45,109 bases of DNA, taken from Candidatus Yonathbacteria bacterium RIFCSPHIGHO2_02_FULL_44_14. GTDB lineage: Bacteria > Patescibacteriota > Minisyncoccia > Phycocordibacterales > UBA1550. Within the stretch, counting starts at the first letter, position 1; every line of letters starts with the position of its first letter. Of the stretch, positions 3,140-43,083 are shown one piece after another. The DNA lies in contig MHUT01000009.1 of assembly GCA_001823535.1 (NCBI GenBank), forward strand, positions 1 to 45,109, given 5' to 3'. The notes below the pieces were generated by a model. That model did not search any database. It worked only from the letters and a program-made list of their open reading frames with translations, and had not been told where the DNA came from. Made by a program: the position numbers and the translations under genes.

Positions 3140-3628
3140 TTATTCCTGTTCGTCGTCGGATAAATGTGCGAGTAGCTTTAATTTATTTTCAAAGTACCAA
3201 ATCGCAGTAAATACAAAAAGCGCAAAGATAGTAGTAAAGACTGCCAAAGCATAAAATCCGTACCCAATAGCAATACCAATGCCTGCGGCGACCCATATCC
3301 CAGCCGCGGTGGTGACCCCGCTTACTTTCGCGTCTTTAAAAAAAATGAGGCCGGCACCAATAAAACCAATTCCTTGAATAATCGCAGCGGTAATACGCGC
3401 CGAGGAATCAGTGAACACGCCCAGAACGCTGCCATACCCACCTGATGCGAGAATACCAATGATTACGAAAAGCGCTGATCCCATAGTGACGAGTCCGTAT
3501 GTTCGCATCCCAGCAGGCTTTCCCGCGATTGCACGCTCGATACCAAGGGACATGCCTAGAATAAGCGCAGTAAATAATTTAAGAATTATTTCCAAGTCCT
3601 GGTTAGTTAAAAGTGTTGTGATATCCAT
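3140..3628 (-). CDS. MgtC/SapB family membrane protein
   Basis: LGIER..KPAGMRTYGLV, RITAAIIQGIGFIGAG, GVTTAAGIWVAAGIG. Confidence 0.92.
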   Translation of the reverse strand: MDITTLLTNQDLEIILKLFTALILGMSLGIERAIAGKPAGMRTYGLVTMGSALFVIIGILASGGYGSVLGVFTDSSARITAAIIQGIGFIGAGLIFFKDAKVSGVTTAAGIWVAAGIGIAIGYGFYALAVFTTIFALFVFTAIWYFENKLKLLAHLSDDEQE

Positions 3629-3662
3629 AATTTACATTGTATCAAATGCTTTTTATTTTTAA

Positions 3663-3847
3663 CAGGACTCGTATGTTTGGATGCAATACGAGCACGTAAG
3701 TCAATTTACTAATTGAGCGACAAGGAGCAAAAATGCGAGCTGTACGTCGCGCTTCAATCGACACTGCGCGACTCGATTTTGCAAAATCGACAGTGAACGT
3801 TTTTGCAACGAAGTCAACGAGGTAGTGCGCCAAACACACGGGTCCTG
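3663..3847. repeat. Structured intergenic element, family A copy 1
   Basis: 3677-3721 (45 nt) is identical to 18613-18657. The element is closed by a terminal stem caggactcgtatgtttgg/ccaaacacacgggtcctg. Confidence 0.85.
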
Positions 3848-4702
3848 CTAAAACTCCTGACAAACCATATCTACCTCCTTCACGACATTTTTTATTTGCT
3901 CATCCGAAAAACCAATTGATTTTAGCGGAGTGGGGCTATTCTTGAGGTCACGACACATCACTATACCTTGCTGGAGAAGGTTATTTTTGTCACTCTGGCT
4001 CAAGGTTGAAAGAAAAGTGAGTGGATGCACCCCCGTCTCCAATATAAGATCTTGCAGGTTCCCTTGCTCGGGGTAATCCCAACCAATAATATTGAGCCCC
4101 GAGCAATTTGCGTACTGGATGGCATCAAGTGTAAGTTTTGTGTTTGTAATGAGCCAACCTTCGTGAATTTTTGGCACGCCAACTTCCTTGAGGTCATGTC
4201 CTTTCTCTAGATCAAGAAAACGTGCGTGTACATAAAGAGCGACCTTAACATCTGTCTTAATTCCCTGCTGATTGTGAAATTTACACTCTGCAAAAATATG
4301 ACGATCGCCTTTTTCCATGAGGATGTCAACTTCGTGCGCAACACAGAAACCGGGCAGGATCGCACCCGTCTGTGCGGTAAATCCTTTTCCGCGCAAAACT
4401 TCTGCTACAAATTTCTCAAAAGGAAACCCACTGGGACCAAGTTCCATTACAGCCTTCCTAAGCGAGTAGCGCACCGCAGCAGGGTACTTTTTTTTCTTGA
4501 GGATAGAGTACGCGTGTTTGTAAATCTGGGAGGTTTTCATTCCGTCATGAAGCTCGGGAATAATATGTTCTACAATCTTGTCAGTGGTCTCCTTATCCGC
4601 ACCGGAGCGTGTCAACGAACGGCGAAGCTTCTCCATAGAAAAGCGTTCACGTTCACCGGTAGATTTTATAACCCATGCAACTTCGTCGTGACCTTTTGCC
4701 AT
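3848..4702 (-). CDS. ATP-cone domain plus PD-(D/E)xK (Mrr-like) nuclease domain protein
   Basis: N-terminal VIKSTGERERFSMEKLRRSL (ATP-cone-like); HEVDIL..AECKFH nuclease motif. Confidence 0.8.
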   Translation of the reverse strand: MAKGHDEVAWVIKSTGERERFSMEKLRRSLTRSGADKETTDKIVEHIIPELHDGMKTSQIYKHAYSILKKKKYPAAVRYSLRKAVMELGPSGFPFEKFVAEVLRGKGFTAQTGAILPGFCVAHEVDILMEKGDRHIFAECKFHNQQGIKTDVKVALYVHARFLDLEKGHDLKEVGVPKIHEGWLITNTKLTLDAIQYANCSGLNIIGWDYPEQGNLQDLILETGVHPLTFLSTLSQSDKNNLLQQGIVMCRDLKNSPTPLKSIGFSDEQIKNVVKEVDMVCQEF

Positions 4703-33245: not shown

Positions 33246-33470
33246 AGGTGCAAAGCGACACTAGGCTCTCGGTCGCGGATTTGGATAGCCTCGCTGAGTA
33301 CGGCTCATCTAAGACTAGCGTGTGGTCACGAATCACTAAATATATTGCTTCGAGTACTCGCAATCTACGTAAGTGCTCGCGACCCCGCCTCGCCATTTCG
33401 TCTGCTGACGAAATATGGCTGTGGCCTCCACAACTAAAAAACGACGCGCAGGCGTCGTTTTTCTTTACGT
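33246..33470. repeat. tRNA-Ala-associated structured element (degenerate)
   Basis: Core ggtcacgaatcactaa..taagtgctcgcgacccc (33324-33386) resembles the Trp/Tyr cores; inverted tccacaa copy; hairpins. Confidence 0.65.
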
Positions 33471-33472
33471 TG

Positions 33473-33546
33473 TGGACCCGGGGAGAATCGAACTCCCTAC
33501 CTCCGGAGTGCAAAACCGGCGCTCTAGCCAAGTGAGCTACGGGCCC
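33473..33546 (-). tRNA. tRNA-Ala(TGC)
   Basis: Cloverleaf GGGCCCG/CGGGTCC with G3:U70, loop TT-TGC-AC, TTCGATT T-loop. CCA is not encoded. Confidence 0.95.
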
Positions 33547-34677: not shown

Positions 34678-34759
34678 GCCGGGATGGCGGAATTGGTAGA
34701 CGCACACGACTCAAAATCGTGCGGGGCAACCCATGAGAGTTCGATTCTCTCTCTCGGCA
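34678..34759 (+). tRNA. tRNA-Leu(CAA)
   Basis: GCCGGGA/TCTCGGC acceptor, CACGA-CTCAAAA-TCGTG, long variable arm. CCA is not encoded. Confidence 0.95.
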
Positions 34760-34769
34760 CAAAATAATT

Positions 34770-36663: not shown

Positions 36664-38082
36664 TTAATCTTGCGATAATCTGGAAAACCTATAATCATCA
36701 GGCTTTAATTTAATGTCCATCTCAAGTGTAGCCTGATATGATCCTAAACATGGGTCAATATGCTCTTTAATGTCTGATAGTTTTTCAAGCACTGGCTCAA
36801 TATCAAGCCCTTTTTGTCTCAAAAACCGCATCATTCGTAAAGCATGAGCCCATGCATCTCTCTCTTCAGCAATGTACTCTTCTCTTGCTTTCTCTAATTT
36901 GCTATTTTTTATAAGATAGTATTTTTTAACTTTAAGGGACTCTTTGACTTCCTGAGGGACCTCTAGATTACTAATTTGATCAATACTAGCGCTATTAAAC
37001 GCATGTTGTAGATTTATCACACCAGCCTCTTGTGTAGGCTCTGTCACCGAAAGTGACGACTGATTATCTACAATATATAGTTCTGTGCCGATATCTGAAA
37101 GTTTCTCAACTATTTCACTAATTTCCTCAGCTATCTCACTAGAGTGAGGTTTAAGACTTGCGAATTCTAGCGCCTGCATTAAACTGTAAGATTCTGTAAG
37201 AAGTTTTTTATAAGTAAATTTGCCTTTATATGAATCAGAGGAATAGTTATCCTGCCATGAGTGTGCAATCTCGTGAAAAAGACTTAGCATTTTACCTTTC
37301 TCAGTGATATTTCCATACCCAACCATTCTCTTACTTGGAGACTCAAAAAACTTTCCTGTAGACATGGACGCTCCTCCATAGTTTTTTAAATCAAAATCCT
37401 CCACCCCTGGTTCAAAATGAAAGTCACTAGGCAATAAAGCATCCAGATCAAGTGCCATACCACTTCTTGTATCCTGTATAATAAGACTAGCTCTTGTAAA
37501 TCTATATGTATTTGAATTAAATATTTGATTTTCTATGTGCTCATAAAGAATATTCTTGTCTCCATATTGCTTCATGGCGCGAGAAATTTCCTGTTTATTT
37601 ACACCATTATTTTCACTTTCATTTAAACTGGTTTCATACGGTTGCTTCTCTTTCCTAAAAAGACTTTTTTCAAAAAAACTTTCGAGATTCTCTCTTAATA
37701 TTTTTCGTTTTAGGAGCGTCGGAGCAAATTCATTTTTTTCTTTTTGTACTAAGGCATTAGTTGTAAAATCATCACGACCCTGCCCAAGTCTTTCTGGAGG
37801 TTTAATCCCTTGTGGAATAAGTTCTTTAAAAAAATCTCCAGCCTCATTGCTAAAATCCTTGAGAGAGGTGTATCTGCTTGTTATTTCCTTTGATGTTTCT
37901 GCGCGTAGGCCCCCTATAGTAGAAATTCCTATGGAGTTGAGAACTGGCTCCAAACTATCAAGAAGTTTATCTTTTAGTGACAGTGAGCTTAACTCAGAAC
38001 CTCTTTCTGTTGCCTTCTCGACATTACTAAAAGAGGGCTCAGGTGGCTTCGTATAATTGTTCAAATTATTGAAAGATTCCAT
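36664..38082 (-). CDS. Hypothetical zincin-like metallopeptidase, AT-rich
   Basis: LFHEIAH (HExxH) and EERDAW. TG-A-TATAAT lies 6 nt before the ATG at 38082. Confidence 0.65.
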   Translation of the reverse strand: MESFNNLNNYTKPPEPSFSNVEKATERGSELSSLSLKDKLLDSLEPVLNSIGISTIGGLRAETSKEITSRYTSLKDFSNEAGDFFKELIPQGIKPPERLGQGRDDFTTNALVQKEKNEFAPTLLKRKILRENLESFFEKSLFRKEKQPYETSLNESENNGVNKQEISRAMKQYGDKNILYEHIENQIFNSNTYRFTRASLIIQDTRSGMALDLDALLPSDFHFEPGVEDFDLKNYGGASMSTGKFFESPSKRMVGYGNITEKGKMLSLFHEIAHSWQDNYSSDSYKGKFTYKKLLTESYSLMQALEFASLKPHSSEIAEEISEIVEKLSDIGTELYIVDNQSSLSVTEPTQEAGVINLQHAFNSASIDQISNLEVPQEVKESLKVKKYYLIKNSKLEKAREEYIAEERDAWAHALRMMRFLRQKGLDIEPVLEKLSDIKEHIDPCLGSYQATLEMDIKLKPDDYRFSRLSQD

Positions 38083-38125
38083 ACACAAATTATATCATAA
38101 ACTAGGTTCAGTCCCGCTTCCGGCT

Positions 38126-38390
38126 TTCGAGTCCTCGTGGGCCTCGCAATGACAACAATGCCAGATGACTTTCAGTATCTGGCATTGTCATTGCGGGCCC
38201 ACGAGTCCGCGGTCCCGAGTTACTAAGTATTTTACCACGTTTCACTTGTAAAATCCTAAGTACTCGCGACCCCAGCTCGACTGTCGCCTTGCGACATGGC
38301 TCCGCTTTTCGAGTCCTCGACGCAAGCCAAGCAGTTGGCTTGCTTGGGCCCGCAAATGAAAAGCACCGCTTAAGCGGTGCTTTTCATTTG
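38126..38390. repeat. tRNA-Trp 3'-end mirror array
   Basis: Inverted copy 38126-38149, direct copy 38191-38205, interrupted inverted copy 38308-38355, and two long hairpins. Confidence 0.9.
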
Positions 38391-38461
38391 CGGGCCCACG
38401 AGGACTCGAACCTCGGTCTGCGCGTTTGGAGTGCGATATTCTACCACTGAACTATAGGCCC
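38391..38461 (-). tRNA. tRNA-Trp(CCA)
   Basis: GGGCCTA/TGGGCCC acceptor, G73, loop CT-CCA-AA, CGAGG-TTCGAGT-CCTCG. The anticodon stem is imperfect. Confidence 0.9.
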
Positions 38462-38501
38462 TTACGAATTCGAGTATATCAAAATTTACCTAAAAATGGA
38501 A

Positions 38502-39635
38502 TTATTTGTATATGCGTTTCATAAGAGGATTGAGGCGCGTCAAAATCTCATACGCGGAAGTACCTGAGCGCTCGGCAAGTTCACTCGCCAGTATTTCCTC
38601 TTTTCCCGAGAAGCCAATGAGCACCACTTCATCACCTACCTTCACGCGTGGGATTTGTGTGACATCAACGACAATCATGTCCATCGACACTCGACCCAAA
38701 ACTTTTGCGCGAGCACCACGCACAAGGACATCAGCATTGCTTGAGAGTAACCGCGGATACCCATGCCAGTATCCCACAGGGCAAACTGCGATGCGCATGA
38801 CATGTGCCGTCTTGTGCGTAAGGTCATAGCCAATTCCAGATCCTGCGGGAATTTCTTTAATTTCAGAAATAATTGTCTTCCAAGAAAGTGCTGGGCTAAG
38901 CGAAAAGCTTCCATTGAACACACGTTTTATCTCATCAGCAGTCCAAAAACCATAGAGCCCTGCACCAATACGCACCATATCAAAATGCGCATCCCTAAAA
39001 CCAAACACGCCACCCGTCGCGCACGCATGCGCAATCAGAGAAAACCCTGTACTCCGCAGTGCGGTTCTCCACACCACAAACTCAGCAATCTGCGATTCCG
39101 TAAACACTCGATTATTCACGTCCTTTGCTGACGCAAAATGTGTATAGAGCCCTGCGACTTGCACTTTGTTCTCTTTGAGAATCTTTAAAACCTGTGGTAC
39201 TTCTCGCAAAAGAAAACCTTGGCGATGCATCCCTGTGTCTATTTTGAGGTGAATAGGAATTTGCCTTGTGTTTGGTGTTTTTAAAAATGTTTGTAACCCG
39301 TCTATACTTGAAATAGTAAGATGAATTTTTTTGCGAAGCGCTTTTACAAACATTTCAGGAAGCGTGTACCCGAGAACGAGGATGGGCTTTTTCACACCGC
39401 TCTTTCGCAAAGCAAACGCTTCGACGAGCGAGTCAACTGCGAGCATATCAATACCGATTTTTTCGAGTTCAAGAGCAAACTCTGTCAAGTTATGGCCATA
39501 CGCATTAGACTTCACAATCCCCATTATTTGAACATTTTTGGGAACGAGTTTTCGAAAAGCGCGATAGTTCGCATGGATTGCTTTAGTGTCAATTTCAATC
39601 CAGGTGCGTAGCCCCATGTGTTCACTTTTCTTCAT
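38502..39635 (-). CDS. alr: Alanine racemase
   Basis: IVKSNAYGH (PLP Lys), HLKIDTGMHRQG, GYWHGYPR, GRVSMD. Confidence 0.97.
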   Translation of the reverse strand: MKKSEHMGLRTWIEIDTKAIHANYRAFRKLVPKNVQIMGIVKSNAYGHNLTEFALELEKIGIDMLAVDSLVEAFALRKSGVKKPILVLGYTLPEMFVKALRKKIHLTISSIDGLQTFLKTPNTRQIPIHLKIDTGMHRQGFLLREVPQVLKILKENKVQVAGLYTHFASAKDVNNRVFTESQIAEFVVWRTALRSTGFSLIAHACATGGVFGFRDAHFDMVRIGAGLYGFWTADEIKRVFNGSFSLSPALSWKTIISEIKEIPAGSGIGYDLTHKTAHVMRIAVCPVGYWHGYPRLLSSNADVLVRGARAKVLGRVSMDMIVVDVTQIPRVKVGDEVVLIGFSGKEEILASELAERSGTSAYEILTRLNPLMKRIYK

Positions 39636-39863: not shown

Positions 39864-39905
39864 AGTTTTTTCATCCTACTACAAGCTGTGAAAAAAGGCA
39901 AGAAA

Positions 39906-40219
39906 TTGTGCGCCGGCGAATTAGCAAATTCGAGTCTTGGACTACAGGATTCGAATCCTTACAAAAGCCAACTGCTTGGCTTTTTCCCGACGCTACAAAA
40001 ATCGAAGCCCCATACTCTTTCGAGTATGGGGCTTGATTTCTTGTGCGCCGGGAAAGTCGGCCCCGAGTTACTAAATCGCTTCGCTCCTAAGTACTCGCAG
40101 CCCCGGCTCACTGTCGCCTTGTGACATGTTCCGCCTTTCGAATCCTTACGCAAGCAAAGCAGTTTGCTTGCTCCCGGCGCACAATTAAAAAACTCCTCAT
40201 TTGAGGAGTTTTTTAATTG
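39906..40219. repeat. tRNA-Tyr 3'-end mirror array
   Basis: Direct copies 39906-39916 and 40041-40054; interrupted inverted copies 39950-39998 and 40137-40184; two long hairpins. Confidence 0.9.
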
Positions 40220-40302
40220 TGCGCCGGGAAGGATTCGAACCTTCGAAGCCCGGAGGCGAGAGATTTACAGTCTCTTGTGATTGACCACTCCACCACCGAC
40301 GC
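40220..40302 (-). tRNA. tRNA-Tyr(GTA)
   Basis: GCGTCGG/CCGGCGC acceptor, A73, AGAGA-CTGTAAA-TCTCT, long variable arm. CCA is not encoded. Confidence 0.96.
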
Positions 40303-40306
40303 ATAT

Positions 40307-40362
40307 GTGAGCGAGCGTTTCGTTCCCCAGTCAGCAGACAGGGGAACGAAACGCTCGCTCAC
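40307..40362. repeat. Perfect 22-bp inverted repeat
   Basis: gtgagcgagcgtttcgttcccc / ggggaacgaaacgctcgctcac. Confidence 0.85.
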
Positions 40363-40395: not shown

Positions 40396-43083
40396 TTAGG
40401 TTACTGCTTTTGCGTTCACTCGTGACTTTGTCGTTACCTGCTTTTTCTCGACACGAATTGCAATTTCTCCTTTTTCAACAGAAACAAGGACACGACCCCC
40501 TTTAAGTACTCCCGAAGAAATCATAAGTGATGCTACTGGTGTCAAAATCTTTGTCTGAATCAAACGCTTGAGCGGGCGCGCTCCGTAGCGCGAATCATAT
40601 CCCTTCTCTGCGAGATACGTTAGCACCTCGGGCATAACATTGAGAGCAATCTCCTTTTCTGCGAGACGCTTTTTCACTATATCAACCTGAAGACCAACAA
40701 TGCTCTTAATAACCTCTGGTGACAAAATATCAAAGATAATTATTTCATCCAGACGGTTCAAGAACTCTGGACGGAAAAAATCCTTAAGCGACTCCATCAC
40801 GCGCTCTTTTGCATCAGAGTAATCTGCCTTGTCGCTTGCATGAGCGCCAAAGCCAATAGCCTGCATTTTGTCGATATGCTCTGAACCAATATTCGAGGTT
40901 AAAATGATAACCGTGTTTTTGAAGTTCACCACTCGACCCTTTGAATCGGTAAGGTGTCCGTTGTCCAGAACCTGTAGAAGAATGTTGAACACCTCTGGAT
41001 GTGCCTTTTCAATCTCATCAAAAAGAAGCACGGAGTACGGGCGATGACGCACAGTCTCGGTGAGATTACCACTCTCTTCGTGTCCAACATATCCAGGCGG
41101 CGAGCCGATAAGTTTTGAAACCGAATGTTTCTCCATATACTCGGACATATCCACACGCACGAGCGCTTTATCATCGTTGAACATAAATTGCGCAAGTGCT
41201 TTCGAAAGCTCTGTCTTCCCCACGCCTGTTGGACCAAGGAAGAGGAACGAACCGATAGGGCGGTTTGGGTCAGCGATGCCAGCGCGAGAACGCTTGATGG
41301 CATCCGCAACTTTTTGAATAGCATCCTTCTGTCCCACCACGCGCTTTTCAAGCTCTTCTTCCACGTGTGCAAGCTTCCCTGCTTCTTCCTCAAGCATCTT
41401 GGTAACGGGGATCCCAGTCCAGCGCGCTACAACCTCCGCAATGTCTTGCTCCACCACTTCCTCTTTCAAAATACGGCGGGATGACTGAAGTTTTTTCAAA
41501 CGTGCAACTTTTCCCGTAAGGTCTTTTTCAAAGCCCGGAATACGCCCGTAGCGAATCTCCGCGGCAAGAGCGAGGTCTGCCTTCATTTCCGCAGTCTCCG
41601 CCTCTAGGCGCGCGGTTTCAAGGCTTTTCTTAATAGCGCGAATATCTTGAACAAGCTCCTTTTCATTTTTCCATTTAATCTCAATTTCCTTGGTCTTTTC
41701 GCGAAGATCACCAATTTCTTTATCAATTTTTTTAGTGCGCGCTTTTGCATTCTTGCCCGCATCCCCTTCTATTGCTGATTCCTTCTTTAACGCCTCTTTT
41801 TCAATTTCAAGACGCATAATGCGACGATGAGCATCCTCAAGTACTGGTGGTTTGTTTTCGAGTGCGATACGAAGAGAAGATGCCGCTTCGTCTATTAGGT
41901 CAACTGCTTTGTCTGGGAGAAAACGGTCTGTAATGTAGCGACTTGAAAGATTCACTGCTGCCATTATTGCGTCATCAGTAATATGCACACCATGGAAAAG
42001 TTCGTACTTCTCCTTGAGTCCGCGTAGGATTGCAATTGCGTCTTCAAGAGATGGCTCGTTTACATGCACTGGTTGGAAACGCCTCGTAAGTGCTGGATCT
42101 TTTTCTATGTGCTTCTGATATTCACGGAGCGTTGTTGCGCCGATAGCGCGAAGTTCCCCGCGCGCAAGCGCGGGCTTCAACATGTTTGATGCATCCATTG
42201 ATCCTTCTGCAGCGCCAGCGCCGACAATAGTGTGAATCTCGTCAATAAAGAGAATAATCTTCCCTTCCGAGCGCTCAATCTCTTTCATAATTTTCTTCAA
42301 GCGGTCCTCAAATTCACCGCGATACTTTGTGCCTGCGATGAGCTGTCCAAGATCAAGAGAAACGAGTTCTTTGCCCTTGAGCGACTCTGGGACATCTCCT
42401 TTTGCCATACGAATAGCGAGCCCCTCAACGACTGCGGTCTTGCCTACTCCGGCTTCTCCGATGAGAATTGGATTATTTTTTGTCCGACGAGATAGGATTT
42501 GGATAATGCGACCCACTTCATTGTCGCGACCGATAACGGGGTCGAGTTTGTCTTGTGCGGCAAGCGAAGTTAGGTTGCGCGTGTATTTATAAACTGACTT
42601 CAGCTTCTTTGACGGCGTACTGTCGGTGATATTTTGCGTACGAAATTCCTCAAGTATGCGCATCACGCTCTCACGATCAATATTTTGGCGCGCCAAAAAT
42701 TCGCGCGCTTGACCTTCCACATCAAAGAGCGACAGGAATAGGTGCTCGCAGGAAATTTGTTCGTCCTTCATCCCCTCCGCAATACGTGGGGCAATCTCTC
42801 CAAGTATTTGTCCGAGCTCTGGAGTAAGGTAGAGCTGATATGCGGAGGCAACATTTTGAGCAGTTGTAGGCTCAATAAGATCAAGAATAGACTCGGCAAA
42901 TGTCACCGAATCCACATCGAGGCGATCAAGGATGGAAATAACGATGCTTTCATCATCAAGAACAAGCGCGGTAAGCAAATGCATGGGGCTCACATGATTC
43001 TGTCCACGTTCTACCGCAAGTTCATGCGCGCGGCGAATAATGTCGCGGGCTTTTGTAGTGAAGTTGTTAAATGGAGGCATCAT
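40396..43083 (-). CDS. clpB: ClpB/ClpC-type AAA+ chaperone
   Basis: Clp N-domain, [29 protein letters not shown], long coiled-coil M-domain, RPEFLNR, GARPL. Confidence 0.9.

What the first reader, a model, noticed from the sequence alone, without database searches (positions are those of the whole stretch)
38195..38355. The opposite strand could encode tRNA-acceptor-capped RNAs
On the plus strand GGGCCCA (38195) pairs with TGGGCCC-G-CAA (38345-38355), reproducing the Trp acceptor and G73. At the Tyr locus GCGCCGG (40045) pairs with CCGGCGC-A-CAA (40174-40184). Both end at the bidirectional terminator shared with the tRNA. Internal stems covary: GCTC/GAGT versus GTTC/GAAT (tracking each tRNA's T-loop), gcaagcC/Ggcttgc versus gcaagcA/Tgcttgc, and TGTCGC/GCGACA versus TGTCGC/GTGACA (G-U only on the plus strand). 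The products would be 158- and 137-nt tRNA mimics. No promoter was identified, and flanking ttgc/ttgt would mask the 3' tail unless processed.
Basis: inference. Interest (0 to 1): 0.85.

Follow-up and report, generated by a model that had tools for sequence, protein, structure and literature searches.

The report
tRNA-end insertion modules in Patescibacteria
The stretch next to tRNA-Trp (and its twin next to tRNA-Tyr) is one copy of a large, apparently undescribed family of small non-coding, highly folded insertion modules that sit at the 3' ends of tRNA and tmRNA genes in candidate-phyla-radiation bacteria, each copy carrying arms copied from its own tRNA; the strand under structural selection is the tRNA's, not the opposite one.

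Summary
Both loci have ends that pair and repeat the neighbouring tRNA's acceptor 3' strand, discriminator and CAA, and their bodies are homologous. A third, shorter relative follows tRNA-Ala. A core pattern and a covariance model found 167 copies in about 110 Patescibacteria genomes. 114 of 181 tRNA/tmRNA genes in those loci have one just downstream. Rfam, IMG/VR and the literature gave nothing.

Covariation is strong, but wobble pairs lie on the tRNA-sense strand (104 G-U against 5). The "acceptor cap" is a direct plus an inverted copy of the tRNA 3' end, not a copy of the acceptor stem. Short-type copies have only a 5-bp closing helix.

A close relative has an exactly empty site at tRNA-Tyr. 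In the window, two different units sit there between 13-nt direct repeats, and the tRNA-proximal unit has the perfect arms. Each unit brings its own bidirectional terminator and folds, as a circle, into a near-fully paired branched rod.

Best reading (about 0.5): a non-autonomous, single-strand-folded integration module aimed at tRNA 3' ends, moved in trans by an unknown enzyme. Main rival: a tRNA-sense read-through RNA. No stranded RNA data exist.

The parts
38390..38461 (-). tRNA-Trp(CCA). No encoded CCA; G73 is followed by CAA.
   Evidence: ARAGORN and Rfam RF00005, 61.5 bits.
38345..38398 (.). 27+27-nt perfect palindrome: A' (inverted copy of the tRNA 3' end), the bidirectional terminator hairpin (about 38356-38387), and the tRNA 3' end itself.
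   Evidence: I2 (100% complementary, 0-nt spacer); fold.
38191..38355 (-). Read in tRNA sense: A'a 38355-38345; P4 hairpin 38344-38320 (loop CUGC); complement of T-stem 3' strand and T-loop 38319-38308; P3 and P2 core 38308-38210; distal direct repeat A2 38205-38191.
   Evidence: D13, I17, I22; covariance-model hit 38210-38308(-), 82 bits, E 2e-18.
38113..38193 (-). Remnant of an older unit ('TrpE2': T-loop copy plus t' with a 1-nt indel, 38113-38150) and its hairpin/terminator (38147-38193). In locus L010 this same hairpin lies directly beside tRNA-Trp.
   Evidence: I3, I11, I18, D3; L010/L034 matches at 86-89% identity.
40219..40302 (-). tRNA-Tyr(GTA). A73 is followed by CAATT.
40172..40229 (.). 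28+28-nt perfect palindrome: A', terminator, tRNA-Tyr 3' end.
   Evidence: I1.
40041..40184 (-). Long-type unit 'TyrE': A2 40041-40054; core 40058-40137; T-loop/T-stem complement about 40137-40147; P4 40148-40172; A' 40172-40184.
   Evidence: D4, I16; covariance-model hit, 66.5 bits.
39904..40044 (-). Older, different unit 'TyrE2': direct repeat AATTGTGCGCCGG 39904-39916; body of four small hairpins to 39998; its own terminator 39995-40044. It lacks the P2/P3 core.
   Evidence: (D2, D4, I5, I15).
33321..33462 (-). Short-type unit 'AlaE' downstream of tRNA-Ala (33472-33546): A2 TGTGG 33321-33325; core 33323-33427; A' CCACAA 33428-33433; terminator 33437-33462, whose loop reads CUGC in tRNA sense.
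   Evidence: covariance-model hit, 93 bits.

Best explanation
The feature is one unit of a family of small (about 135-200 bp), ORF-less insertion modules specific for the 3' end of tRNA and tmRNA genes in Patescibacteria.

Anatomy, read in the tRNA's sense:
1. A bidirectional terminator hairpin.
2. A', the reverse complement of tRNA nt 54-73 plus trailer. In the long type it is split at the acceptor/T-stem junction by hairpin P4.
3. A conserved three-way core: P3, then GGGG, then P2 with a GA-GC-NNN-GC-GA tip.
4. A2, a direct copy of the tRNA 3' end. It runs from T-loop nt 56 in the long type and from nt 71/72 in the short type, through the first trailer bases.

Proposed mechanism (inferred, not shown): in single-stranded or excised form, A2-terminator-A' makes one long hairpin whose stem reconstitutes the duplex of the tRNA gene's 3' end. 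A recombinase supplied in trans exchanges strands with the chromosomal tRNA 3' end. The result is tRNA(A)-terminator-A'-core-A2. The tRNA is restored, it gains a terminator, and older units are pushed distally.

Shown:
- The anatomy.
- The family and its distribution.
- Strand-specific covariation.
- A precise filled-versus-empty site.
- Tandem stacking with the youngest-looking unit next to the tRNA.

Inferred:
- Current mobility.
- Whether the folded molecule is single-stranded DNA or RNA.
- The enzyme.
- How the arms come to match each tRNA.
For: 1. Family and target.
- The core pattern hit at least 116 genome loci, nearly all Patescibacteria. The covariance model gave 167 hits.
- 81 of 123 pattern hits, and 114 of 181 tRNA/tmRNA genes, have a unit within 350 nt downstream. 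At least 31 different anticodons and tmRNA are represented.

2. Arms.
- Both arms match the local tRNA 3' end.
- The distal repeat starts at nt 56 in most long-type copies and at nt 71/72 in short-type copies.

3. Insertion.
- The syntenic relative L072 has the rpmG 5' UTR abutting tRNA-Tyr with nothing in between.
- The window has about 311 nt (TyrE2 plus TyrE) at exactly that point, between AATTGTGCGCCGG repeats. L034 also lacks them.

4. Accretion.
- TyrE and TyrE2 have unrelated bodies.
- The tRNA-proximal units have perfect arms (27/27, 28/28). The distal units have mismatches, an indel or a truncation.
- In L010 the window's distal hairpin lies directly beside tRNA-Trp.
- L043 holds a tandem array of 182-nt units. 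L052 has two copies with identical arms flanking a NYN gene and a truncated tRNA fragment.

5. Single-strand structure.
- 98.4% of cells are paired, 11 of 14 pairs show double changes, and 0 of 500 shuffles reach this.
- G-U count is 104 in tRNA sense against 5 in the opposite sense.
- Repeat-to-repeat units fold as circles into branched rods, z -9 to -13, with RNA or DNA parameters.
- The variable hairpins are almost pure Watson-Crick, with wobbles under 1%. The P2 tip favours GNA triloops. Both fit a DNA hairpin as well as an RNA one.

6. Position in its structural sense.
- In its structural sense, each unit examined (the window units and the loci read in detail) lies directly after a terminator-type hairpin. 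This suits a recombination site better than a gene.

7. Island context.
- Copies with no tRNA upstream often lie just downstream of accessory or defence genes: CBASS, SLFN-helicase/S24, AAA_15/21, ThsA, NYN. That is the usual cargo of tRNA-linked islands.
Against: - No recombinase, transposase or HUH gene is enriched near the units. None was identified anywhere, so mobilisation is unproven.
- The empty site in L072/L034 could also arise by precise deletion between the direct repeats.
- Short-type units sit at orthologous positions (ddl-tRNA-Ala in 13 loci, constant 102-103-nt spacing) with compensatory changes between species. That looks like long-term vertical inheritance under host-level selection.
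- The core is extremely conserved across distant lineages, more like a functional RNA than typical selfish DNA.
- A site-specific recombinase with fixed specificity cannot explain more than 30 target tRNAs. How the arms are retargeted is unexplained.
- No excised form or within-population empty-site variant was seen in metagenome contigs, and there was no hit in viral contigs.
Confidence: 0.5

Rival explanations
1. A structured RNA made in tRNA sense, as a 3' external-spacer or dicistronic tRNA-ncRNA, transcribed by read-through of the tRNA terminator. It would have a host function tied to its tRNA, such as trailer processing, insulation of downstream genes, or a protein-binding small RNA. The arms would let A' pair with A2 instead of invading the tRNA.
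For: - Covariation and G-U excess lie on the tRNA-sense strand.
- Loops and internal loops are conserved: CUGC, GA-GC-NNN-GC-GA, GGGG.
- Short-type copies keep orthologous positions across many species.
- A large share of tRNA genes carry one.
- Related units appear in contigs of metatranscriptome runs at depths similar to tRNA, including contigs that span the unit-terminator-unit junction.
Against: - In this sense, each unit examined begins right after a strong intrinsic terminator, and there is no room for a promoter.
- The variable helices contain almost no G-U, which is unusual for RNA.
- Different, unrelated units are stacked at one tRNA, with decay away from it.
- Intact copies occur without any tRNA, downstream of defence genes.
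- The RNA contigs carry no strand information, come from relatives, and could contain DNA.
Confidence: 0.28
2. One reading: the opposite (plus) strand is transcribed from its own promoter into 137-158-nt RNAs. These end at the shared bidirectional terminator, are capped by a mimic of the tRNA acceptor stem, and may be processed, given CCA, or charged.
For: - In plus sense the layout is that of a normal gene, body then terminator.
- The long type has a 12-bp closing helix equal in sequence to the acceptor plus T-stem 3' strand, with the same discriminator and trailer as the tRNA.
- One G-U in TyrE forms only on the plus strand.
- A sigma-70-like site at 38069-38098(+) lies upstream of the Trp array.
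Against: - Wobble asymmetry is 104 to 5 against this strand. The commonest P2 variant (TCACAAGT, about 40% of copies) would be an A-C mismatch, and a conserved A-C would sit in the middle of P2.
- In plus sense the helix topology is the reverse of a tRNA: the 3' strand is the interrupted one.
- The 5' arm copies the complement of the 3' strand, not the tRNA's 5' strand (Tyr C4 versus U4; Ala-type arms would give A3-U70).
- Short-type units have only a 5-bp closure that includes trailer bases.
- The claimed T-loop-tracking stem does not covary.
- There is no tRNA, tRNA-like or Y-RNA hit in Rfam even at E<10.
- No promoter lies directly upstream of TrpE or TyrE.
Confidence: 0.05
3. Inert scars: leftover attL/attR ends of larger integrated elements (prophages or islands carrying their own integrase) that have since been deleted. 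The shared core would be the element-side att arm.
For: - Direct repeats of the tRNA 3' end starting in the T-loop are the classic signature of integrase-mediated insertion.
- tmRNA is also a target.
- Defence and accessory cargo lies next to some copies.
- The accessory ORF 36664-38088 lies beside the Trp array and is absent from L072.
Against: - Most units are complete, cargo-less and of constant architecture in more than 100 genomes.
- No integrase was seen in 116 eight-kb loci, and there was no match in 2.9 million viral contigs.
- Strand-specific compensatory evolution is not expected of decaying scars or of double-stranded protein-binding arms.
Confidence: 0.12

Closest known systems
Integrative elements and genomic islands at tRNA/tmRNA 3' ends (P4-type tyrosine-integrase att sites), and their integrase-less derivatives (cis-mobilisable elements, CIMEs). 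This comparison rests on my own knowledge.
   Same: - The target is the 3' part of tRNA and tmRNA genes.
- The direct repeat runs from the T-loop (nt 56) or from the extreme 3' end into the trailer.
- The tRNA is regenerated.
- Units accrete in tandem.
- Defence cargo is sometimes adjacent.
   Different: - Units are only 135-200 bp, with no integrase in cis.
- One body type serves more than 30 different tRNAs.
- Each unit also carries an inverted copy of the target and a conserved, covarying fold on one strand only.
Folded single-strand recombination sites: integron attC (bottom strand) and the CTX-phage attP(+) hairpin used by XerCD. This comparison rests on my own knowledge.
   Same: - Structure is conserved on one strand only, with conserved mismatch and bulge features.
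- The hairpin stem recreates a duplex like the target site.
- The recombinase would be encoded elsewhere.
- Copies occur at the 3' end of cargo genes.
   Different: - No IntI or Xer link has been shown, and there are no R/L boxes or dif-like sequence.
- The primary-sequence core is strongly conserved, whereas attC sites are not.
- The target is a tRNA gene rather than attI or dif.
MITEs and REP/REPIN-type palindromic repeats (Correia, ERIC, BIME). This comparison rests on my own knowledge.
   Same: - They are small and non-coding, have inverted termini, occur in many copies, overlap terminators, and depend on an enzyme supplied in trans.
   Different: - The termini here are target-derived and differ in every copy.
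- Insertion sites are only tRNA/tmRNA 3' ends.
- Internal helices covary.
tRNA-linked non-coding RNAs and tRNA mimics: the 3' ETS of leuZ, plant tRNA-snoRNA dicistrons (cited in PMC12045711), mascRNA, YrlA, and the tmRNA tRNA-like domain.
   Same: - A structured element lies directly downstream of a tRNA in the same sense.
- The long type has a closing helix with the sequence of the acceptor and T stems.
   Different: - A terminator separates it from the tRNA.
- There is no T-arm or D-arm.
- There is no Rfam similarity.
- The short type has no acceptor-like helix.
- It behaves as an insertion.
Guide-bearing recombination RNAs (the IS110 bridge RNA). This is a lead only and rests on my own knowledge.
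   Same: - It is a non-coding structured module of 150-200 nt whose variable segments match the target, while the scaffold stays constant.
   Different: - No IS110-type recombinase lies adjacent.
- The matching segments are terminal arms of about 23 nt, not short internal-loop guides.
- No evidence of RNA was obtained.

Membership tests
tRNA / tRNA-like RNA (Rfam RF00005, mascRNA, Y RNA, tmRNA tRNA-like domain) | Cloverleaf or at least acceptor plus T-arm detectable by covariance model | tested here: not met
   cmscan at E<=10 on both strands hits only the genuine tRNAs. ARAGORN finds none in the units.
tRNA / tRNA-like RNA | Acceptor helix reproduces the tRNA's own 1-7/66-72 pairs, including identity pairs | tested here: not met
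   The 5' arm is the Watson-Crick complement of the 3' strand (Tyr GCGCCGG versus tRNA GCGTCGG; Trp GGGCCCA versus GGGCCTA). The short type pairs only nt 71-73 plus trailer.
Structured non-coding RNA gene on the opposite (plus) strand | Compensatory and wobble changes consistent with that strand | tested here: not met
   G-U count is 5 in plus sense against 104 in tRNA sense. In pattern-independent copies it is 3 against 23.
Structured non-coding RNA gene (either strand) | Evidence of a discrete transcript | tested here: inconclusive
   Only unstranded contigs from relatives in metatranscriptome runs were found, and no run holds this organism's RNA.
tRNA-targeted integrative element | Direct repeat of the tRNA 3' end flanking the insert, with an intact tRNA at one end | tested here: met
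   D13 (15 nt, Trp), D4/I15 (13-14 nt, Tyr). Family-wide.
tRNA-targeted integrative element | Filled versus empty site in related genomes | tested here: met
   L072 and L034 lack TyrE/TyrE2 at an otherwise collinear junction. Precise deletion cannot be excluded.
tRNA-targeted integrative element | Cognate integrase or recombinase | tested here: not met
   None among recurrent ORF clusters in 116 loci or in the Pfam scans of neighbouring genes. An enzyme acting in trans was not testable.
Integron attC / folded single-strand att site | Structure conserved on one strand only, with conserved unpaired or mismatched bases | tested here: met
   There is a conserved G-T, a bulged A and a U-U in P2.
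Integron attC / folded single-strand att site | Recombination by IntI/Xer on single-stranded DNA; R/L core boxes | not testable with these tools
   No enzyme was identified and no such boxes were recognised by eye.
MITE | Constant terminal inverted repeats and a short fixed-length target duplication | tested here: not met
   The termini differ in every copy and equal the local tRNA end. The repeat is 5 to 25 nt.
Intrinsic (bidirectional) terminator | GC-rich hairpin flanked by an A-tract and a T-tract | tested here: met
   Hairpins at 38356-38387, 40186-40215 and 33437-33462. These are one part of each unit, not the whole.

The most novel reading that the evidence does not exclude
The arms are not passive scars. 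They specify the target. The inverted arm A' (about 23 nt complementary to tRNA nt 54-73 plus trailer, split by the P4 hairpin) would act as a base-pairing guide, either in a folded single-stranded DNA or in an RNA. It would direct a trans-acting Patescibacteria recombinase to the matching tRNA gene end. The same scaffold would then be naturally reprogrammed to more than 30 different targets simply by swapping arms. This would be a nucleic-acid-guided, cargo-capable integration system that also builds defence-gene arrays at tRNA genes.
Probability: 0.15. Interest if true: 0.95.

Novelty: new variant of a known kind. Interest (0 to 1): 0.75.

Why it matters
- If this is right, a large share of tRNA genes in a major, poorly understood bacterial radiation carry an unannotated structured module. 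The module supplies their terminator, duplicates their 3' end, and marks sites where accessory and defence genes accumulate.
- It would be a new way of targeting tRNA genes: one scaffold with many arm sets. It would point to an unknown recombination enzyme, or possibly a guide-based mechanism.
- On a practical level, the modules create tRNA-fragment repeats and long palindromes that affect annotation and assembly of these genomes.
- If it is instead a tRNA-sense RNA, it would be a new and very widespread class of tRNA-linked non-coding RNA.

Tried and rejected
- Rfam. The gathering-threshold scan and the E<=10 scans found only tRNAs and noise-level miRNA hairpin hits.
- Viral contigs.
- RNA evidence. 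No run holds this organism's RNA. Related units are present only in unstranded Logan contigs. A second query with an H41 groundwater locus gave nothing useful.
- Population variants. DNA metagenome contigs confirmed the junctions but showed no empty-site variant. The 'joints' listed there are cross-matches to other family members.
- Mobility enzyme. ORF clustering over 116 loci found only housekeeping neighbours. The ORF beside the Trp array (36664-38088) has 12 rare homologues with no Pfam domain, located beside methylase, PDDEXK and helicase genes. It is accessory cargo, not a family-wide enzyme.
- Considered by eye and dropped:
  - K-turn and loop-E motifs in the P3 internal loop.
  - The Ro-binding helix of Y RNA.
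  - A retroviral-type primer-binding site (the arm complements genomic CAA, not CCA).
  - IS200/IS605 ends (these give no target duplication).
  - Group I and group II introns (size, and no Rfam match).
  - A riboswitch reading in plus sense (wrong strand).
- Literature. Six full-text searches found no description. Two papers were checked and are unrelated: TIGR-Tas (PMC12045711) and tRNA gene fragments (PMC9897764).

Full report
**1. The observation**

The window comes from a Patescibacteria (candidate phyla radiation) genome found in groundwater and soil metagenomes.

- tRNA-Trp (38390-38461) and tRNA-Tyr (40219-40302) lie on the minus strand.
TTGCGGGCCCA (38191-38201) pairs with TGGGCCCGCAA (38345-38355). 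TTGTGCGCCGGGA (40041-40053) pairs with TCCCGGCGCACAA (40172-40184) (I22 and I16).
- Each right arm continues through the terminator into the tRNA as a perfect palindrome of 27+27 nt (Trp) or 28+28 nt (Tyr) (I2, I1).
- The two bodies are homologous, at 83% mean column identity.
- Both strands fold far better than shuffled sequence.

**2. A family, not two loci**

- A diverged relative lies downstream of tRNA-Ala (core at 33323-33427).
- No Rfam family matches any of these on either strand, even at E<=10.
Nearly all are Patescibacteria: Paceibacterota, Yonath-, Lloyd-, Kaiser- and Campbellbacteria, Gracilibacteria, and MAGs labelled Saccharibacteria.
None has a co-oriented tRNA.
- Both arms match the 3' end of the local tRNA.
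- A covariance model of the core (R1) found 167 copies in the window plus 115 loci.
- 114 of 181 tRNA/tmRNA genes in those loci have a unit downstream on the tRNA's own strand; 9 weaker opposite-strand model hits also lie downstream of tRNAs. Three of four tmRNA genes carry a unit.
- Three of the window's four tRNAs carry one.

**3. Anatomy**

There are two architectures. Both are read here in tRNA sense.

| Type | Order of parts after the tRNA |
|---|---|
| Long (Trp, Tyr) | trailer; terminator hairpin; A'a (complement of nt 66-73 plus trailer); P4 hairpin; A'b (complement of T-stem 3' strand and T-loop); P3 with a variable hairpin; GGGG; P2; A2 |
| Short (Ala) | terminator hairpin that itself carries the CUGC loop; 5-6-nt A'; P3; GGGG; P2; 5-nt A2 |

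- The P4 loop is CUGC in 24 of 49 long-type copies, and its closing pairs covary.
- P2 has the sequence UCGCGAGYACUUA...UUAGURACUYGUGA. About half the copies have the tip GA-GC-NNN-GC-GA, and 38 of 65 of those triloops are GNA.
- In the long type, A2 usually starts at T-loop nt 56 and runs into the trailer. In the short type it is made of nt 71-73 plus CA.
- In the three loci examined, P4 sits at the acceptor/T-stem junction.

**4. Which strand**

- RNAalifold and explicit pair counts show strong covariation: 98.4% of cells are paired, 11 of 14 pairs show changes on both sides, and 0 of 500 shuffles reach the observed values.
- Wobbles are almost all on the tRNA-sense reading. Of 2253 cells in P2 and P3, 2115 are Watson-Crick, 104 are G-U in tRNA sense, 5 would be G-U only in the opposite sense, and 29 are other mismatches.
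- My search pattern fixed one strand of P2, so I repeated the count on the 46 copies that lack the exact pattern. The result was 23 against 3.
- In tRNA sense the closing helix has the topology of a tRNA, with a continuous 3' strand. In plus sense it is reversed.
- The structure is therefore selected on the tRNA's own strand. The data cannot say whether that single strand is RNA or DNA. The variable hairpins have under 1% wobbles, the tip is a GNA mini-hairpin, and in this sense each unit examined lies just after a terminator-type hairpin. All three points fit single-stranded DNA at least as well as RNA.

**5. Insertion behaviour**

- The closest relative, L072 (a Yonathbacteria MAG), is collinear with the window: miaA, TrpE, tRNA-Trp, rpmG, tRNA-Tyr, clpB.
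- In L072 the rpmG leader (...AAAAAGGCAAAT) abuts the tRNA-Tyr 3' end directly.
- In the window the same point (...AAAAAGGCAAGA) is followed by AATTGTGCGCCGG, TyrE2, a terminator, TyrE and a second terminator, and then AATTGTGCGCCGG again as the end of tRNA-Tyr. L034 also lacks both units.
- TyrE and TyrE2 have unrelated bodies, so they are independent arrivals at one site.
- At both loci the tRNA-proximal unit has perfect arms. The distal one is mismatched (TyrE2) or truncated with an indel (TrpE2).
- The hairpin that separates TrpE2 from TrpE in the window lies directly beside tRNA-Trp in L010.
- Elsewhere:
  - There is a tandem array of identical 182-nt units in L043.
  - There are two copies with identical arms around a NYN gene and a truncated tRNA fragment in L052.
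  - There are copies with no tRNA immediately upstream, several of which lie downstream of accessory or defence genes: CBASS in L053, SLFN-helicase/S24 in L036, AAA_15/21 in L014, ThsA-Macro in L043.
- Each repeat-to-repeat unit, folded as a circle, forms a branched rod in which A2, the terminator and A' make one long hairpin (z -9 to -13). This explains the perfect palindromes beside the tRNAs.

**6. Interpretation**

The best-supported reading is a non-autonomous, tRNA/tmRNA-3'-end-specific integration module. Its folded single strand reconstitutes the target duplex and carries a conserved three-way core, presumably a recognition platform for an enzyme supplied in trans.

Shown:
- The anatomy, the distribution and the strand-specific covariation.
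- A precise filled-versus-empty site.
- Stacking with the youngest-looking unit next to the tRNA.

Inferred:
- Present-day mobility.
- Whether the folded intermediate is DNA or RNA.
- The enzyme.
- The way arms are matched to each tRNA.

Arguments against:
- No recombinase was found near the units.
- No viral carrier was found.
- No excision variant was seen in contigs.
- The short type shows long-term orthologous conservation, for example ddl-tRNA-Ala in 13 loci.
- The empty sites could be precise deletions.

The main rival is a tRNA-sense read-through RNA with a host function. It explains the conservation. It does not explain the terminator in front of the unit, the unrelated stacked units, or intact copies away from tRNAs.

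**7. Novelty and limits**

- I found no description in Rfam 15, in 2.9 million viral contigs, or in six full-text literature searches.
- The nearest known kinds are tRNA-targeted integrative elements and CIMEs, folded single-strand att sites (attC, CTX attP), and MITE/REPIN repeats.
- This family combines features of all three, and adds target-matched direct and inverted arms on a constant scaffold.
- The decisive data are missing: stranded RNA, excision junctions in raw reads, and a partner enzyme. My confidence in the mechanism is moderate, at about 0.5.

Noticed in passing
window 36664-38088 (-): A 474-aa ORF with no Pfam domain and only 12 detectable homologues. It lies between miaA and the tRNA-Trp unit array and is absent from the collinear relative L072. 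Its homologues sit beside DNA methylase, PDDEXK, LexA/S24 and RecQ-like genes, so it looks like accessory or defence cargo at a tRNA-linked hotspot.
   Followed up: partly
window 38502-39635 (-): Alanine racemase lies between tRNA-Trp and rpmG here. In L072 that interval is about 250 nt of unrelated sequence, so there has been a second rearrangement in the same tRNA neighbourhood.
   Followed up: no
window 40307-40362: A 26-bp near-perfect palindrome between the clpB-like gene (40396-43083) and the 5' side of tRNA-Tyr. It is not conserved in L072 and is presumably the clpB terminator.
   Followed up: no
window 33472-33546, 34678-34760, 38390-38461, 40219-40302: None of the four tRNA genes encodes CCA. 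In all four the discriminator is followed by CAA, and this trailer is part of the arms of every unit.
   Followed up: partly
L033, L035 (and L007, further away): The same module sits next to the 3' end of tmRNA (ssrA), with arms matching tmRNA.
   Followed up: partly
L052 about 3200-3900: A tRNA gene interrupted by an intron of roughly 250 nt, which ARAGORN misses, followed by a unit. A second unit with identical arms lies about 960 nt away, beyond a NYN-domain gene and a truncated tRNA 3' fragment.
   Followed up: partly
L053 3235-5048; L036 648-6574; L014 927-3527; L043 2220-4090: Units with no tRNA immediately upstream lie just downstream of defence-type genes: CBASS cyclase plus Cap15, Schlafen-like helicase with S24 peptidase, AAA_15/AAA_21 ATPase, and Thoeris ThsA-Macro.
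   Followed up: partly
L043 about 3600-4300; L067: A simpler core variant (GGTCACAAATCTGC-CTCGCTGCGCTCGA-AGCAGATTCGCGACCCC) alternates with the standard core in a tandem array of 182-nt units.
   Followed up: no
window 39917-39998 (TyrE2); also L087, the L052 P2 cap, and an X25 RNA contig: A second recurrent module (CGAATTAGCAAATTCG plus GTCTTGGAC) occurs alone in TyrE2 and inside or beside standard units elsewhere. In TyrE2 the P4-like hairpin has its loop flipped (GCAG in tRNA sense).
   Followed up: no
runs X23, X25, X26 laid on window 38000-38520 and L010 6200-7800: Contigs from RNA-type libraries contain several different family members at depths similar to tRNA contigs. They carry no strand information and come from other organisms.
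   Followed up: partly
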